Made by a program: the position numbers
Source: Candidatus Cloacimonadales bacterium
GTDB lineage: Bacteria > Cloacimonadota > Cloacimonadia > Cloacimonadales > JAFGVF01
DNA: 64,000 nt
Assembly (NCBI GenBank): GCA_963663475.2
Contig: CAXXJV010000001.1
Span: 320,001-384,000 of the forward strand
Reading direction: 5' to 3'
Part shown: positions 36,001 to 42,000 of the stretch, piece by piece
Layout of the letters: the number at the start of each line of letters is the position of its first letter
Position numbering within the stretch: the stretch's first letter is position 1

Positions 36001-39000
36001 CTTAGAAACAGCTTTAAACGAACAAGAACATGCAAAAATCTTCTTTAAACATCTTGTTAATAATGGTGTTGAAGGTGATGCAATTGAAATCACAGCCAGC
36101 TATCCTGCTGCTTGGGCTCAAAAAGATACTTTAAAAAATCTAGAGTATGCTGCTGATGGAGAAAATGAAGAGTGGACAGACCTCTATCCTGAATTTGCTA
36201 AAATTGCTGATGAAGAAGGCTTCCCACAAATAGCTGCTTCTTTCCGTGTTATTGCTAAAATTGAAAAGCATCACGAAGAAAGATATAGAATGCTCCATGA
36301 AAGAGTTAAAGCTCATGAAGTATTCAAAAAAGATGGTAAAGTTTATTGGAAATGTAGAAAATGTGGATACTTACATGAAAGCTTAGAAGCTCCTTCTATC
36401 TGCCCATCATGCTCTCATCCACAAGGATATTTTGAATTATTGTGCGAAAAATATTAATTTAAAAAGGGGATCTGAATGGAAAAGTATCAATGTTTAGTGT
36501 GTGGATATATCTACAATCCGGCCGAGAATAATAATGTATCTTTTGAAGACCTACCAGAAGACTGGGTTTGCCCAGAATGTGGAGTAGGAAAAGATATGTT
36601 TGAAGTAATTGACTAAAAACTTATTATGAGTTAAGGATTGATTAGGATTTAGCATTTACTTTTCCATAAAGTTGCTGATATTTCCTTGTCAATTTAGGAG
36701 TACTAATGACAAAATCTGAGTTTGATAAAGTAATTGAATTCGCTATTTTAAGAGAACAAGATGCTGTAGATTTTTATCATGAATTGCAAAATCATGCTAA
36801 GTTTGCAGACCAAAAACAAATGCTGATTGATTTCGAAAATATGGAAAAAGGTCATATAGCCATTCTTAAAAATATCCATAAGAAAGGTTTAGACTTTTTA
36901 GATCCTAATAAACCTTCTAACATGCAAACTAGTGATTACATGTTAGCTGATTATGATCAAGATAATCTGAGCTACGATAAAATCTTAGTAATTGCTATGA
37001 AAAGAGAAGAGTACTCTTATAAGTTATATAAAGATTTAGCAACTAAGTTCCCTGATACTGAAGTAGCTACTCTCTTTAATAACTTAGCTGCTGAAGAGAT
37101 TAAACATAAAAATCAATTCGCTGACATGTATGATAAACATGTTTTAAAAGATAATTAATTTAACCTGATCGTAATTATATAGAGCATAGCCTATTATTTT
37201 AGGCTATGCTTTTTTACTTTTTAGTAAACAGTTAAAAAAGGCTCTTGTTCAAGTCTGGTGGGGATAATCCCAGATAGTGTAGTAGAGCTTTAGTGAAGAG
37301 TGCAGATTATTCTAGCAAAATAGCTTACAGAATTTTGACGCATATATTTTATATATTCGGAGAAATTATGGAAGCTACTTTTGCAGAAGAATATAGTGCT
37401 ATTCACAAAGGTCTACTGCATTATTTGGGATAATATAGGTAAATGAGAATATTTCATTACAATATTGATTCATCAAAAATCCCTGAAAGATAAGATGCTG
37501 ACTTGTGAAGGCGTAGCTTTAGCGAAGATTCAAAGTATCGCAAGCCTGGGTAATGATGGCTAGCCCAAAGATATTACCCTGTAAGGGTTTAATAAAACGA
37601 TAAATAATGTATTATTATAATAAGTTTATTGCACTCTTCTACCTAGTCTAAGTCCTAACTTAAAACTCATATAATATTGGACTTTTTCAAACTCATCTTC
37701 TCCTACAATTTGGTTCTCAACACCACCACCAACAGAAGAATATACAGGACCGAGCTTTAGAGTGTACAACAACTCTGCACCTATCGCCTGAAGGTGTTTC
37801 TCGCGTGAAATACCAGAAATAGATTTATTTCTTTCTGTATGGGCTGAAGAATGATAAATTGCCACAGTTGGGTAACTGGTCCTCTTATGTAAATCATTCT
37901 GAGTCCCTAGGAGAATTGCTGCTCTAGTTTCTAAAGAATGTGCATCATATTTAGCAGCCTGTCCTATGCTATCGAACAAATTTCGGGAAAGACTCATAAA
38001 CATCGAAACTCTAAGGGGTTTCTCAGGATTACTAAGTAACCTCTTGTATCCTATTTTAAAACCAGTAAGTTTTGTTCTGCATTGAAATTTTTTTGTTGTA
38101 GTATCATCTCCTGAGGAATAAGAATAAGTATTTGTTCCTCCTTCAGATCCTGCAAGTAAACCTAAGGATAATTCATCAAGATCTGTCAGCCCTAACCTGA
38201 GTGTATAATCATTGTAAATATAAGAACTTGAAGTATTTGAGCCAGTTGCAGAGATTTCTGTGTCATCTTCATCCCAAACTTCATATTCAGTAACATAAAT
38301 CTTATCTAACGTTCTGATCTTTTTAAAAGACACTTCAATCCCAAAAGATCCCCTTTCAATTGGTAAAGCTTCTTCTCCTAAACCTATAGTTCTTGAAACA
38401 GAAGAACTTGATTGATCAACTATACTACAACCACTGAAAATTATTATTCCCAATCCTATTAATACTAAATACATACAAAGCTTTTTCATATTATCCCCTT
38501 TTTAGCTTACCATTTTTTTATATCTGTTTCTCTTTTTATATATTTTACCACTAATGTCAAGCTTTATTGTTAACTTATTTTATCCTAGTATCTGAGACAA
38601 TTCATGAATTTATGAATTTATGGGTTTATCAACAACATGCTTATCAAGTTAGTTTTTTATTCTTGACCTTATTCATCCCCTACTCATCCCTTACCCTTCC
38701 TTTACACTCTTTCGATGAAAGTCCAGGTTTCATCGAAAGAGTGTAAAGGAAGGGTAAGGGATCAATAAGGAAAATTTGAGACATTTCTTAGATTTTTTTG
38801 CTAAATAGGACCATTTTGAAAAAAATGGACCCTTAAAGATTATGAGGGCTTGTTAAAAAACTTCAAGAAAATCTAAGAAAAGGAGGATAAAGCAATGGTT
38901 GTTATTGAATTTAAAATACCACACGGATTAAAAGCCAAAGCTAGAAGAGAGGGATATTCTCTAGTAAAATATTCAAAACAGCCCTTTTATCACCTCCGAA

Positions 39001-42000
39001 AAAAAAATTCTCCTAAAATAGGGAAAAATCATCATAAGTTCCGCAATACCATGCAAGAACTAAAAATATCTTATAGAAAGCTTAATGATGCTGAAAAGCT
39101 AGCACTGAAAGAAAGGAGAAAAAAGGAAGGAAGTACTAAGTCAGACTGGATTCAATTTGTCAGAGAATATTATAGAGGGATTAGTCGTCAAGCTCTTAAA
39201 GAAAAAAGACAAGTAAAAGCTCAAAACAAGAAAGATCAAGTTAACAAGCCACAAAAAGGAATTGAAAGTAAGAATTTAAGAGAAATGAAGAGTGACGAGA
39301 CTTGCTCACGGAGTAGCGACTTCCGACAAATCAACTTATATTCGTCCGAAGTCCCTTGCCTAGGGCTGAGGAAGTCTGGTCTCCAACCCTTATTGACGGG
39401 AGTTGCTCACGTAGTAGCGACTTCCGACAGCTTATATTCGTCCGAAGTCCCTTGCCTACGGCTGAGGAACTCCGGTCTCAAACAACTCAGCGACTTCCGA
39501 CACTCTTCACCCGAAGTCCCTTGCCTAGGGCTGAGGAAGTCTGGTCTCCAACTCACTATTTCATCAACACTATTTTGTGAGTTTGAGATTTTCCCTCAAC
39601 TTCAAGCCTAACAAAATAAATACCAGAGCTTACACTAGTAGACTGTGAGTTTTTTCCATCCCAAACATAGCTATGATAACCACTATTCAATAAACCTTGA
39701 TATAAACTTGCTACTTTCTGCCCTTTCAAATTATAAACTGCTAGGTGACCATAAGCTTTCTTAGGAAGAATGAAGCTAATTTTAGTCTCTGGATTGAAAG
39801 GATTAGGATAATTTCTAAGTCCAAAAGCTGATTCACTTGCTGGAATAACATCATCATCTTGATTAGAAACACCTATTGGCAACATTGGTATATCTAAATT
39901 TAATTCTAAGGACTCCATTATCATTACATCAGATATTATTACATCTTGATAATCCCAGCGACTTGCCTTAACAGTATAAGTCCCTGCTCCACAATGATAA
40001 GTGTAATTACCTAAGCTGTCACTAAATTCAGGAAGCTTATCTATAATCTCTATCCTAACACAATCTAAAGGCTGATTAGTGCTTGCATCATAGACATTGC
40101 CACTAAAACCACCAATATAGACTGAACCATACTCATAGGCTCCAATATCAACTATATCAGGATTACTCCCGTTTGCTGAAGCGATTCTTTTATGGTAGCG
40201 TAGGTCAAAATCTGGTAAATCAGGACCATAAGCTCCAGCATCTCTACAAGGTGATGAAGGAGATAAAGAGTAATTATGATTTAAAGTATCTGCAAAAAGT
40301 GGGTCTGCGTAAAGATGATTTTCTGTATAGTAATATGATGGGTAATCGATAATTGGAATTGTCCCAAGGTTATTAAAAAATGAGGTAATATACCCCCCAG
40401 AGTTTCCTCCATAGCTAGTTTGTATATCAATTATGTTATTTGTAAATATCGACGCAGAGCTTCCTCTAGCAGTAATCAGCCAAGAATTGTTTACAAATGT
40501 ATTATTATAGATATATGGTGATGTATCATAAGTGTAAAATAATAGTCCCGCAGGAGAATCTGCTGTTTGTCGCACTAGATTATTAAAAACCCTGATTTGT
40601 CCATCGGGTGCTAATAATGAACGTTTTTCAAAATCCATCACACTACTAACATGTTCATTAGTTTCAATTATATTATTATAAATATATGCTTTATTATTAT
40701 CTCTTGTTTCAGCAGTAACTTGAACGTTCCCAAATAGATAGTTATCAGATAGATAATTTGTTCCAAAACCCCCAGAATATAGATTTATGGGATCTAAGTC
40801 AACTACATTCTTAACTAAAGTATTTTTCCTAGCAAAAACTACTTCAGTTGAATCACCAGAATGACAGCCCCAGCCTCTTTTACCATTATAGGCATAATTA
40901 CCGTAACTGCTTATTCTTCCAAAGTTTATTTCTCTAGTTTCGGTAGCATTTACTTCTGAGCCAAAATTATAATAAGTATTAAAAAGGAATAAAGTTATCA
41001 GGTAACCTCCCGAAGAAGGATAATCTGAAGGACCATTAAAGTAACATCTTGCAATAACAAGATTATAAGCTTCATTAGGAGGGTTTTCTTCTGAAGGTCT
41101 AATTGATAATGGTGTAGGATTCCCATGAGGTAGTGGATATATGTTTGTAGTGATGAATCTACATTTATAAACAACTAAATCCATATTCAAGTTTCTTGTT
41201 CTGAGACCAACACAATTATTTTCGAATGTGCAGTTTTTAACATTAATTAAACCATTAAGAAAATTAATTGCACCTCGATGCCCTCCATGTATATAATTGG
41301 GGGTTTCATTGGGGACATAATTTCCAATAAAGGTATGTCTGATTTCACAATACTCGAATGATGAAATAGGAGCCTCTGGTGTTAAAGCAATACCTCCCCA
41401 CTGGTATTCACTGCCATCTTGATATTTATCAAAAATAATTGGGTCTTCTGGAGTACCGATAGCATTGATTGTCCCGTTAACAACTATCATCTTAGCAACT
41501 GGCTGTGTGGTATTACTGTAACTCCAATCAAAAAGAGCAGGATAATTCATGTCTGCTCCACTAACTAAAATTTCAGTTCCAGGCATGATAGTAAGAGTAA
41601 CACCAGAATCTATATAGAGAAAAGAAGTAACTATATAAGGATCATTATGATGAGGATACCAAAGAGTATTCTCTGTGATATGACCTCCTACTTCTATGGA
41701 AAGAAGAGGAAAGGCAATAAGAACTATGATAAACAATAATATATTGTTCTTCATTGTAACTCCTTTAAATATTCGGAGCTTAGGTAATAAGCCTAAGCCC
41801 TTTTAGTTTTTTTATTTCATTAACATCATTTTATGTAGTCTATGTGTATTCTTTGGAATTATAACTACCAAGCACGATTATAGTACAAATATTAACAATT
41901 ATTATGTCAAGATATATTTTGATTATTATTTCCCTCATTAGTGATTAAGAATATTCATTAACAAGTTTACTTCCCTACTAGTATTTTCTTTTTATGTCGT

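What a model noticed while it worked through the whole genome (the two positions that open the first line are those of the whole stretch)
38681..39608. Orphan gene family (HpaP): 7 of 7 copies sit just downstream of an HP-A palindrome
A small basic protein with a conserved domain of about 100 aa and no family match is present in all six congeners, one hit each except G003 with two. It has 7 copies here. Every copy has an HP-A 139-387 nt upstream of its ATG, in the same polarity, and the duplicated unit begins at the palindrome's edge. The other loci are C1:195559-196139, C1:1248100-1248797(-), C1:1462869-1463898, C1:2141548-2142277, C1:2871267-2872038 and C2:59316-60222. It is the candidate partner (binder or mobiliser) of HP-A, or else a passenger.
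Evidence so far: tblastn and distances: calls 89, 90. Unit boundaries and polarity: calls 96, 97, 109. My arithmetic puts the chance of 7 of 7 at about 3e-14. Pfam none at E<0.01; NCBIfam none; PDB profile E>=0.03. Eight hits at E<=0.001 in 1.84 billion representatives. Found in 6 of 6 congeners and 0 of 34 genomes of other genera. No palindrome upstream in the 4 congeners fetched. Likely orthologue is C1:195825. AF2 model pLDDT 75.6.
(Added by a program. Inside this text positions count along the whole contig: contig position 320,001 is position 1 of the stretch shown here. "Call 12" and the like, gene names such as g00115 and contig names such as C1 are that model's own, and its searches are not shown. 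The text may have been shortened before it was handed on; [...] marks where a part breaks off. The agent that wrote the report below was given it as the finding of a first reader that could run no searches.)

Follow-up and report, generated by a model that had tools for sequence, protein, structure and literature searches.

The report
Orphan gene copied alongside hairpin repeat
A small, basic protein gene of unknown function, found only in one genus of Cloacimonadales, has been copied seven times in this genome as a cassette that starts with a 90-base palindromic repeat, so the link is real but comes from one old event, not seven.

Summary
There are 7 full copies of the gene. Each has an HP-A palindrome 128-376 nt (stem end to ATG) upstream.

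The 3e-14 chance figure is not valid. All 7 share one homologous architecture of palindrome, spacer, conserved promoter-like motif, ribosome-binding site and gene. The link is therefore inherited from about one event.

The gene is real. It has a strong RBS and dN/dS of 0.12-0.26 in the diverged pairs. It is basic (pI about 10) and has no match in any library.

It predates the palindrome. Single syntenic orthologues with the same motif but no palindrome occur in G002, G003, G004 and G006.

HP-A looks like a REPIN-type hairpin element. It has 95 copies, all intergenic, with a roughly 35-bp stem showing symmetric double changes. About a third of copies share flanking DNA with another copy. The gene-linked copies obey HP-A's odd minimum spacing of about 14 kb (P = 0.0008).

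Best reading: the gene is cargo co-amplified by the HP-A spreading process and kept by selection. A binding partnership is possible but unshown. A mobiliser role is unlikely.

The parts
38644..38677 (+). Left extension of the duplicated segment, shared only with the C2:59530 copy
   Evidence: The pairwise alignment of the window and C2 units is near-identical from here onward and unrelated to the left. BLAST coverage is 2-3 copies here, against about 95 over the palindrome.
38678..38770 (.). HP-A palindrome: 43-nt arms and a 7-nt loop at 38721-38727 reading GTCCAGG. It is the left end of the cassette.
   Evidence: inverted repeat I1, 93% complementary; 95 genomic copies; stem of about 35 bp with symmetric double changes across copies
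38771..38799 (+). Spacer between palindrome and motif, homologous in all 7 units. Two units carry a 72-nt insertion here.
   Evidence: alignment. The same spacer, with no motif or gene after it, lies beside solo HP-A C1:940056.
38800..38852 (+). Conserved promoter/operator-like motif: a near-inverted repeat GGACCA..TGGACC followed by a -10-like TAAAGAT
   Evidence: An nhmmer profile finds 14 sites in the genome, 7 of them before HpaP copies. The motif also lies upstream of the orthologues in G001-G004 and in a metagenome contig. A sigma-70-like match, TTGAAA-16-GATTAT, lies at 38816-38843.
38880..38886 (+). Ribosome-binding site AAGGAGG, 8 nt before the ATG
   Evidence: the same sequence in 5 of 7 copies and close variants in the other 2
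38895..39209 (+). Conserved HpaP domain, the first 105 codons: basic (27 K+R and 9 D+E in the first 100 aa, pI 10.4)
   Evidence: alignments; dN/dS 0.12-0.26; AF2 pLDDT 77.6; charge
38895..39611 (+). Whole open frame of 238 aa. From about codon 131 it is read from REP-B repeats, so the tail is repeat-encoded and differs between copies.
   Evidence: ORF lengths in the 7 copies are 238, 193, 150, 167, 169, 105 and 231 aa; orthologues in congeners are 97-131 aa.
39293..39552 (.). Array of three REP-B units (GTAG-tagged small palindromes). It forms the right end of the youngest duplication.
   Evidence: families D1-D3; about 100 BLAST hits in the genome, 22 of them within 500 nt of an HP-A; window-C2 identity ends inside this array

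Best explanation
HpaP is a fast-evolving protein of about 95-105 aa, restricted to one genus. It is strongly basic and mostly helical, so it is probably a nucleic-acid-binding protein. That function is inferred, not shown. It is an ordinary chromosomal gene with its own conserved promoter/operator-like motif.

In the lineage of this genome, an HP-A hairpin element came to lie about 30-35 nt upstream of that motif. HP-A is a REPIN-like, non-coding, intergenic palindrome. After that, the 0.6-0.9-kb cassette of HP-A, spacer, motif and gene was copied as a unit. Seven intact copies and at least three decayed ones remain.

The copying is tied to whatever spreads HP-A itself. The fixed end of the unit is the palindrome, the other end varies, and the copies obey HP-A's spacing rule.

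The most likely mechanics are recombination or gene conversion at dispersed HP-A copies, helped by the REPs downstream, or imprecise one-ended co-mobilisation of flanking DNA by the unidentified HP-A machinery. In terms of movement the gene is cargo, but selection keeps the extra copies.

Shown: the anatomy, the common descent of the units, purifying selection, and the age and distribution of gene and palindrome.

Inferred: the mode of copying and the protein's activity.
For: 1. One architecture in all 7 units: palindrome, about 30 nt of homologous spacer, motif, RBS, ATG. The only differences are insertions of other small repeats.
2. Decayed units exist. HP-A plus spacer plus motif without the gene lies at C1:2490116 and C1:2618668. 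HP-A plus spacer only lies at C1:940056.
3. The gene predates HP-A.
- It occurs in 6 of 6 congeners.
- It lies between the same two neighbour genes in G002, G003, G004 and G006.
- The motif is present in L007, L009 and L015 without a palindrome.
- Exact core-pattern counts are G000 92, G001 45, G004 1, G005 1, and 0 in the other 27 genomes searched.
4. The 7 copies form one clade (99/97) with the syntenic copy C1:195825 basal. AU tests reject C1:195825 grouping with the G004 and G006 orthologues (p = 0.013 and 0.0012).
5. Purifying selection: dN/dS is 0.12-0.26 in all 18 pairs with dS >= 0.07. dS reaches 1.0-1.7 against C1:195825.
6. Co-duplication of flanks is general for HP-A. Of 95 copies, 33 share at least 30 nt of left flank and 34 share right flank with another copy.
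7. HP-A C1:2141587 has the left flank of a group of 8 solo copies and the right flank of the HpaP unit at C1:1462902. It is therefore a recombinant joined at the palindrome.
8. At the mnmE locus the HP-A is orthologous in G000 and G004, with a 61-nt core 100% identical while mnmE itself is 78% identical. Only G000 has the gene there.
9. The 7 gene-linked HP-As each lie at least 13.8 kb from the other 88. Random placement achieves this in 0.08% of 20,000 trials.
Against: - The order of events is unresolved. G004's gene-less HP-A plus motif at the mnmE locus suggests the unit is older than the G000/G004 split. The protein tree and AU tests say the duplications came after that split. Gene conversion among copies could reconcile the two, but it was not tested.
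- The youngest duplication begins about 35 nt left of the palindrome, in unique DNA. Simple homologous exchange at HP-A does not explain that.
- No mobilising enzyme for HP-A was found. The four Y1 transposase genes (three types) are flanked by other repeat families.
- Plain cargo would be expected to decay, yet 7 copies stay under selection. That leaves room for a function connected with HP-A.
- G001, which has its own burst of related palindromes, also has one near its single gene. Pure chance predicts this only about 1-3% of the time under uniform placement (my arithmetic from 45 copies in 3.3 Mb).
- No expression data cover the gene. The one RNA run laid had no contig on it.
Confidence: 0.55

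Rival explanations
1. Functional partnership. HpaP binds the HP-A palindrome as duplex, hairpin or cruciform. Together they would form a system of about 95 spaced sites plus a dedicated small basic protein. Extra gene copies would then supply dose or variants, and the palindrome beside each promoter could feed back on expression.
For: - Both features are confined to the same genus. The gene is in 6 of 6 congeners and has only weak hits in 1 of 54 other genomes. The palindrome core is in 4 of 7 genus members and in 0 of 24 genomes of other genera.
- In both genomes with a burst (G000 with 92-95 copies, G001 with about 45), the gene lies beside a palindrome.
- Gene copy number rose only in the genome with the largest burst.
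- All 7 copies are under purifying selection.
- The protein has pI of about 10.
- The HP-A core is far better conserved than neutral DNA. dS between the old units is above 1, yet the cores are near-identical. Something therefore reads the core.
- HP-A spacing is non-random.
Against: - G002, G003 and G006 keep the gene, with its motif and synteny, and have 0 core-pattern matches. The protein therefore has a job without HP-A.
- G001 has about 45 palindromes and only 1 gene copy.
- 85 of the 95 HP-As have no trace of the unit.
- No DNA-binding fold was recognised. Foldseek gave nothing at E <= 0.001, and the best VIA Z was 5.3, on two helices only.
Confidence: 0.2
2. Independent targeting. HP-A-type palindromes insert preferentially just upstream of this promoter-like motif, or into the repeat-prone HpaP locus in general. 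The association would then have arisen several times.
For: - 10 of the 14 motif sites in G000 adjoin an HP-A on the same side.
- G001's different palindrome family also sits upstream of the motif of its gene.
- In every genome inspected, the HpaP flanks and 5' leader are filled with whatever small repeats that genome has. The locus is a repeat sink.
Against: - The palindrome-to-motif spacer is homologous across all 7 units, and at lower identity (73%) in the gene-less module at C1:2490116. This points to one junction, inherited.
- 4 of the 5 remaining motif sites (the C1:1819684 match, the weakest, is 1.2 kb from an HP-A) and 4 congeners' HpaP promoters have no palindrome nearby.
Confidence: 0.12
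3. Mobiliser. HpaP is the protein that moves HP-A, so HP-A plus HpaP is the autonomous element and solo HP-As are its miniature derivatives.
For: - HpaP is the only coding sequence repeatedly linked to HP-A. 10 of 95 HP-As carry the unit or a remnant of it.
- No cognate RAYT flanked by HP-A exists in the genome.
- Decayed units resemble dead copies of an element.
Against: - The conserved part is about 95 aa. The invariant or near-invariant residues are M1, G11, G20, Y32, F49, P9, A14, K15, R18, K36, K37, P40, Y60, W85 and a few others. There is no HUH, DDE, serine or tyrosine recombinase pattern.
- No transposase or recombinase family matched.
- The gene is single-copy and syntenic in palindrome-free congeners.
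- The palindrome lies on one side of the gene only.
Confidence: 0.05

Closest known systems
[quoted passage not shown] Source: Bertels & Rainey 2011, PMC3116915; I read the abstract only.
   Same: HP-A is a roughly 90-nt inverted doublet with a short spacer. It is strictly extragenic (0 of 95 in ORFs of at least 120 aa) and high-copy. Paired changes on both arms preserve the hairpin. The genome does encode RAYT-type Y1 transposases.
   Different: - No RAYT is flanked by HP-A. Each of the three RAYT types has its own, different flanking repeats.
- I see no GTAG-type tag at the ends of the HP-A consensus.
- That abstract describes REP doublets as randomly distributed in extragenic space, whereas HP-A copies avoid each other within about 14 kb.
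- REPINs are not known to me to carry a protein gene along. That is recalled and was not searched.
One-ended or rolling-circle co-mobilisation of flanking genes (IS91/ISCR elements, Helitron gene capture). Named from my own knowledge; not read here.
   Same: One fixed end (the palindrome) and a variable other end (+314 to about +657 from the ATG). Adjacent DNA is copied with the element. A third of HP-A copies share flanks.
   Different: No IS91-type or Helitron-type Rep protein was looked for or seen. HP-A flanks are shared on either side, not only one. No terminal signals are defined.
BIMEs: mosaic clusters of REPs in intergenic DNA. Source: Nunvar et al. 2010, PMC2817692; I saw the search listing and the start of the abstract only.
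   Same: The cassette sits in a mosaic of several repeat families: HP-A, GTAG-tagged REP-B, a MITE-like 170-nt element, and RAYT-flanking REPs.
   Different: BIMEs as described are non-coding. Here a selected protein gene is part of the repeated block.
Gene cassettes bounded by a hairpin recombination site (integron attC cassettes, Acinetobacter pdif modules). Named from my own knowledge.
   Same: A short gene travels with one imperfect palindrome whose structure is better kept than its outer sequence. HP-A has inverted arms around a 7-nt asymmetric centre (GTCC + 3 variable bases), like a recombinase core site.
   Different: There is no array and no adjacent integrase. The palindrome is upstream of a gene that has its own promoter. 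The arms are far longer than known core sites. No recombinase link was tested.

Membership tests
REPIN / REP element (for HP-A) | Two inverted halves with a short spacer that can fold into a hairpin | tested here: met
   43-nt arms, 93% complementary, 7-nt loop. Arm symmetry is 0.92-1.00 over the first 24 positions across 95 copies. Symmetric double changes occur, for example G/C at position 13 in 72 and 19 copies.
REPIN / REP element (for HP-A) | High copy number, confined to extragenic space | tested here: met
   95 copies. 0 of 95 lie inside an ORF of at least 120 aa. The median host gap is 744 nt, against 141 nt genome-wide.
REPIN / REP element (for HP-A) | A cognate RAYT gene flanked by the same repeats | tested here: not met
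   4 Y1_Tnp genes of 3 types. They are flanked by 60-nt, 92-nt and 49-77-nt repeats of other families, not by HP-A.
RAYT / IS200-IS605 TnpA (for HpaP as mobiliser) | Match to Y1_Tnp, with an HUH motif and a catalytic tyrosine in conserved context | tested here: not met
   No Pfam or NCBIfam match for 11 family members at E <= 10 and 3 members at E <= 0.01 respectively. No His pair is conserved across the family.
Ribbon-helix-helix DNA-binding proteins (for HpaP) | An N-terminal beta-strand plus two helices, forming a dimer with a DNA-reading ribbon | tested here: inconclusive
   RHH proteins (TraM, TacA, CopA, PutA, NikR, ParD and others) fill the top of the VIA list at Z 4.0-5.3. They align only to helices at residues 50-105 of the model, where the model has no strand. 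Foldseek gave nothing at E <= 0.001.
J-domain (DnaJ) (for HpaP) | An HPD tripeptide between helices II and III | tested here: not met
   The best PDB profile hit is a J-domain over 44 residues at E = 0.12. At the aligned loop the family has NSP, SNP or NQP, never HPD. There is no Pfam DnaJ match.
Type II antitoxin (suggested by fold hits) | A conserved adjacent toxin gene in the same unit | tested here: not met
   The units share no second ORF. Homology between old units ends at +314 to +334 from the ATG. PADLOC gave 0 families.

The most novel reading that the evidence does not exclude
HpaP is the dedicated reader of the HP-A/HP-A' palindromes. On this reading the genus carries a two-part system: a small basic protein, plus hairpin or cruciform-forming sites that keep at least 14 kb apart along the chromosome. 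The protein would set or sense that spacing, either by a target-immunity-like exclusion or by chromosome structuring. The palindrome beside each gene copy would be the system's own feedback site. This would be a new kind of protein-and-site partnership behind a bacterial repeat family that has no RAYT.
Probability: 0.15. Interest if true: 0.85.

Novelty: new variant of a known kind. Interest (0 to 1): 0.5.

Why it matters
Small hairpin repeats (REPs, REPINs, MITEs) are usually treated as non-coding passengers of bacterial genomes. Here such an element has taken a selected protein-coding gene, with its promoter, to seven places. This shows that these repeats can amplify genes and build gene families in uncultured anaerobes.

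It also corrects a tempting statistical argument. Seven of seven is one event copied, not seven coincidences.

The surrounding facts point to an unknown spreading or spacing mechanism worth testing, and this protein is the only linked candidate:
- a REPIN-like family with no cognate transposase;
- copies that avoid each other within about 14 kb;
- a sister burst in a congener;
- a loop that flips between orthologous sites.

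Tried and rejected
- Earlier findings of this scan were not open.
- The word-index protein search returned only this genome's own proteins.
- The ESM Atlas gave only scores of 0.87-0.88 to unnamed clusters, and no structure search was possible.
- Rfam gave only sub-threshold generic hairpin (miRNA-precursor) matches to the palindrome.
- Phage records gave no tblastn match.
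- The metagenome scan gave one further locus, cut within the motif.
- Reads and contigs: short-read contigs break at the repeats. No contig bridges an empty site and no RNA contig lies on the gene, so the call says nothing about expression or excision.
- Depth ratios only suggest about 100 collapsed HP-A copies and 3-4 gene copies in another sample.
- Homodimer prediction gave no verdict (score 0.00 against a mark of 0.42), which is no evidence either way.
- The 153-aa ORF behind the solo motif at C1:57987 is not a relative of HpaP (hhalign probability 1%).
- The empty-site approach failed. The two genes flanking the window unit are not neighbours in G002, G003, G004 or G006, and homology with G006 stops at the stop codon of the 732-aa gene.
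- IS110-type transposase: none found in the genome.
- Literature: 'Cloacimonadota + repeat + palindromic' gave 6 papers, of which 4 were listed, none on such elements by title or abstract. 'palindromic + evenly spaced + bacterial chromosome + repeat' gave 2 papers, of which 1 was listed and is irrelevant. I know of no description in print. The claim rests on these two searches only.
- I could not assign the motif to a sigma factor or regulator. The -35/-10, sigma-54, CtsR-like and Bacteroidetes-type readings that I tried by eye did not fit.

Full report
WHAT IS THERE

The window is G000:C1:320001-384000 of a two-contig, 3.30-Mb genome with 33% G+C. Its closest public relatives are titled Candidatus Cloacimonadales or Cloacimonadota MAGs.

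At window 38678-38770 lies a palindrome with 43-nt arms, 93% complementary, and a 7-nt loop. An AAGGAGG ribosome-binding site follows at 38880-38886, then an ATG at 38895 that opens a 238-codon frame ending at 39611.

From about codon 131 the frame is read from three copies of another small repeat at 39293-39552. I call this repeat REP-B. It carries a GTAG tag and gives about 100 BLAST hits in the genome. The tail of the predicted protein is therefore repeat-encoded.

The flanking genes are a divergent 287-aa ORF and a convergent 732-aa protein with a type IX secretion sorting domain.

THE OBSERVATION

The copies share a conserved stretch of about 93-105 aa that is 56-99% identical to the window copy. 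Their tails are unrelated, giving ORFs of 238, 193, 150, 167, 169, 105 and 231 aa.

BLAST with the palindrome finds 95 loci, 81 on C1 and 14 on C2. Each gene copy has one of these upstream, 167-415 nt from palindrome centre to ATG. The facts of the finding hold.

WHY THE 3e-14 FIGURE IS NOT VALID

An alignment of the seven upstream regions shows one shared plan:
- the palindrome;
- about 30 nt of homologous spacer;
- a conserved motif of about 53 nt;
- the RBS region;
- the ATG.

The different distances come from insertions of other small repeats. A 72-nt piece is shared by C1:1463317 and C1:2141828. Further insertions lie between motif and RBS in C1:1463317, C1:2871532 and C1:195825.

The junction between palindrome and promoter region is thus homologous in all seven. 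The copies inherited the palindrome; they did not acquire it seven times. The number of independent associations in this genome is about one.

THE GENE IS REAL AND OLDER THAN THE PALINDROME

dN/dS over the first 93 codons is 0.12-0.26 for all 18 pairs with dS >= 0.07. dS reaches 1.0-1.7 between C1:195825 and the others.

The conserved part has 22-27 K+R against 6-10 D+E, giving pI 10.0-10.7.

A profile search of 1.84 billion representatives gave 10 hits at E <= 0.001:
- 3 are this genome's own proteins;
- 4 are short relatives (59-98 aa);
- 3 are long repeat proteins that I judge spurious.

Genome searches find the gene in 6 of 6 congeners. Apart from that, there are only weak hits (E = 3e-4) in 1 of 54 other genomes. 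That distant protein (219 aa, G021) aligns at hhalign probability 69% over 61 columns. It is itself an unannotated family, represented in G021 by two copies that share about 270 nt of upstream DNA.

In G002, G003, G004 and G006 the gene sits between orthologues of the same two G000 genes, C1:202092-202787 and C1:234882-235991. C1:195825 lies about 6 kb from the first of these. It is also the basal member of a clade of the seven G000 copies, supported at 99/97.

The neighbour proteins are 78-90% identical between G000 and G004 or G006, while HpaP is only 47-51% identical. The protein therefore evolves fast.

The upstream motif is a near-inverted repeat GGACCA..TGGACC followed by a -10-like TAAAGAT. 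It is present before the orthologues in L007, L008, L009, L015 and L035. No palindrome lies upstream in G002, G003, G004, G005 or G006.

An nhmmer profile finds the motif at 14 places in G000:
- 7 precede HpaP copies;
- 2 lie next to an HP-A without the gene;
- 5 stand alone before other genes, among them an msrB-msrA-like fusion, a DJ-1-like protein and two small orphans.

These gene names are my reading of the translations and were not tested against a library. I take the motif to be the gene's native promoter or operator, shared with a small regulon.

WHAT HP-A IS

All 95 copies are intergenic: 0 lie inside an ORF of at least 120 aa. They sit in long gaps, median 744 nt against 141 nt genome-wide, with no preference for convergent or divergent neighbours (27/24/22/22).

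Arm-to-arm symmetry is 0.92-1.00 over the 24 positions next to the loop and 0.61-0.95 out to position 35. Symmetric double changes occur, for example G in 72 copies and C in 19 copies at position 13 on both arms.

The loop is asymmetric, GTCC plus three variable bases. The commonest forms are CAG (27 copies), AGG (16), GCT (14) and GTG (10). Its orientation shows no strand bias (47 against 41).

HP-A thus looks like a REPIN, that is, REP doublets forming hairpins (PMC3116915, abstract read). It differs in that none of the genome's Y1 transposase genes is flanked by HP-A. There are four such genes of three types. Two types match the IS200 model and one matches the REP-associated tyrosine transposase model below its cut-off. 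Each has its own flanking repeats.

The exact core pattern occurs 92 times in G000, 45 in G001, once each in G004 and G005, and 0 times in the other 27 genomes searched. G001 therefore has its own burst of a related family. One member of it lies about 700 nt upstream of G001's single gene.

HOW THE CASSETTE SPREADS: THE EVIDENCE

1. Between old units, homology starts at the palindrome and ends at +314 to +334 from the ATG. Between young units it runs on into the REP-B array, to about +530 to +657. There is thus one fixed end and one variable end.

2. The youngest pair (window and C2, dS = 0) is near-identical from window 38644, about 35 nt left of the stem, to inside the REP-B array.

3. Decayed units exist: C1:2490116 and C1:2618668 (palindrome and motif, no gene) and C1:940056 (palindrome and spacer only).

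4. Sharing of flanks is general. Of 95 copies, 33 share at least 30 nt of left flank with another copy (9 groups) and 34 share right flank (10 groups). The HpaP cassette is the largest case of a common habit.

5. HP-A C1:2141587 combines the left flank of a group of 8 solo copies with the right flank of the unit at C1:1462902. The two were joined at the palindrome.

6. G004's best HP-A lies beside mnmE.
- That locus is orthologous to the one holding G000 unit C1:1248600.
- The core is 100% identical over 61 nt, while mnmE is 78% identical.
- The motif is present, the gene is absent, and the loop is inverted relative to G000.

7. The HP-A copies are over-dispersed. On C1 the gap CV is 0.52 against 0.98 in simulations, the minimum gap is 13.8 kb, and 0 of 10,000 simulations reach the observed value. 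On C2 the CV is 0.57, reached by 223 of 10,000.

8. The seven gene-linked copies each lie at least 13.8 kb from the other 88 (P = 0.0008). The cassettes therefore sit where ordinary HP-As sit.

I conclude that the cassette moves with, or into, HP-A sites. The route could be recombination or gene conversion at the palindrome, or imprecise co-mobilisation of flanking DNA. This step is inferred.

WHAT DOES NOT FIT

If G004's gene-less module is a decayed unit, the unit predates the G000/G004 split. Yet the protein tree puts all G000 copies together, and AU tests reject C1:195825 grouping with the G004 and G006 orthologues (p = 0.013 and 0.0012). Concerted evolution could explain this; I did not test it.

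The left junction of the youngest copy lies in unique DNA, which simple homologous exchange does not predict.

Seven copies under selection are more than a neutral hitch-hiker needs.

THE PROTEIN'S FUNCTION

No library gives a family. The best PDB profile hit is a 44-residue stretch of a J-domain at E = 0.12, but the family lacks the HPD motif.

The AF2 model has pLDDT 77.6 and pTM 0.50. It shows a short helix, two short strands and three helices. Foldseek finds nothing at E <= 0.001.

The wide VIA search gives a best Z of 5.3. Ribbon-helix-helix DNA-binding domains crowd the top of that list, but they align only to the C-terminal helices. The tool's own note says that Z under 8 may mean only a common arrangement.

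I commit to 'small basic nucleic-acid-binding protein' as the likely activity. This rests on charge, size and these weak hints only.

VERDICT

The statistic is not valid. The passenger reading is best supported (0.55). A binding partnership remains open (0.2), independent targeting is at 0.12, and a mobiliser role is unlikely (0.05).

The thing is a new variant of a known kind: a REPIN-like repeat that has amplified a selected orphan gene. The most unusual facts concern HP-A itself, namely its spacing, the absence of a cognate transposase and the sister burst in G001. They make the bolder reading worth a binding experiment.

Noticed in passing
whole genome; in the window the HP-A copies lie at about 7934-8019 and 38678-38770: The 95 HP-A palindromes are over-dispersed. 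On C1 (81 copies) the mean gap is 35.7 kb, the minimum is 13.8 kb, and the CV is 0.52 against 0.98 for random placement (0 of 10,000 simulations). The only close pair, 1.1 kb apart on C2, includes a degenerate copy. The pattern looks like target immunity or a structural constraint.
   Followed up: partly
G000 C1:1248767 and G004 locus L022:1500-1560: The orthologous HP-A beside mnmE has a 61-nt core 100% identical in two species whose mnmE genes are 78% identical. Its 7-nt loop is inverted between them (flip-flop). A second old copy, G000 C2:352302, is orthologous to G004 L024.
   Followed up: partly
G001 (L013:1315-1368 and about 45 other places): A congener has its own burst of a related palindrome family with the same inner core and a 10-nt loop. 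Many copies lie at contig ends of that fragmented assembly.
   Followed up: partly
G000 C1:1464160-1464510 and 2619189-2619539; C1:1064867-1065202; C1:199006-199248: There are four Y1 (RAYT/IS200-like) transposase genes of three types. Each is flanked by its own inverted repeats of 60, 92 and 49-77 nt. One lies directly downstream of the HpaP copy at C1:1463317 and one lies 520 nt from HP-A C1:2618668.
   Followed up: partly
window 38800-38852 and 13 other G000 sites (for example C1:57987, 741551, 224191, 2750448): A promoter/operator-like motif of about 53 nt is shared by HpaP and a few unrelated genes, among them an msrB-msrA-like gene, a DJ-1-like gene, an aminotransferase and two small orphans. 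It may mark a small regulon. I could not identify a regulator or sigma factor.
   Followed up: partly
L003 (C1:1463104-1463274), seen in the alignment: A 170-nt element with terminal inverted repeats is inserted in the 5' leader of the C1:1463317 copy, with TTAAA on both sides. This looks like a MITE with a target-site duplication. Related pieces lie next to many HP-As.
   Followed up: no
window 39285-39611: In four young copies the reading frame runs on into REP-B repeats, giving tails built of a repeated peptide (…SEVPCLGLRKSGLQ…). Repeat insertion has replaced the original stop codon.
   Followed up: no
window 38490-39555: The cassette fills a junction of broken synteny. The two flanking genes are far apart in G002, G003, G004 and G006, and homology with G006 ends exactly at the stop codon of the 732-aa gene.
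   Followed up: partly
L008, L007, L035 (5' leaders of the orthologues): In other genus members the long leader between motif and ATG is filled with arrays of short modules: three 8-9-nt repeats followed by a purine run, or four tandem REPs. The HpaP locus is a repeat sink in every genome inspected.
   Followed up: no
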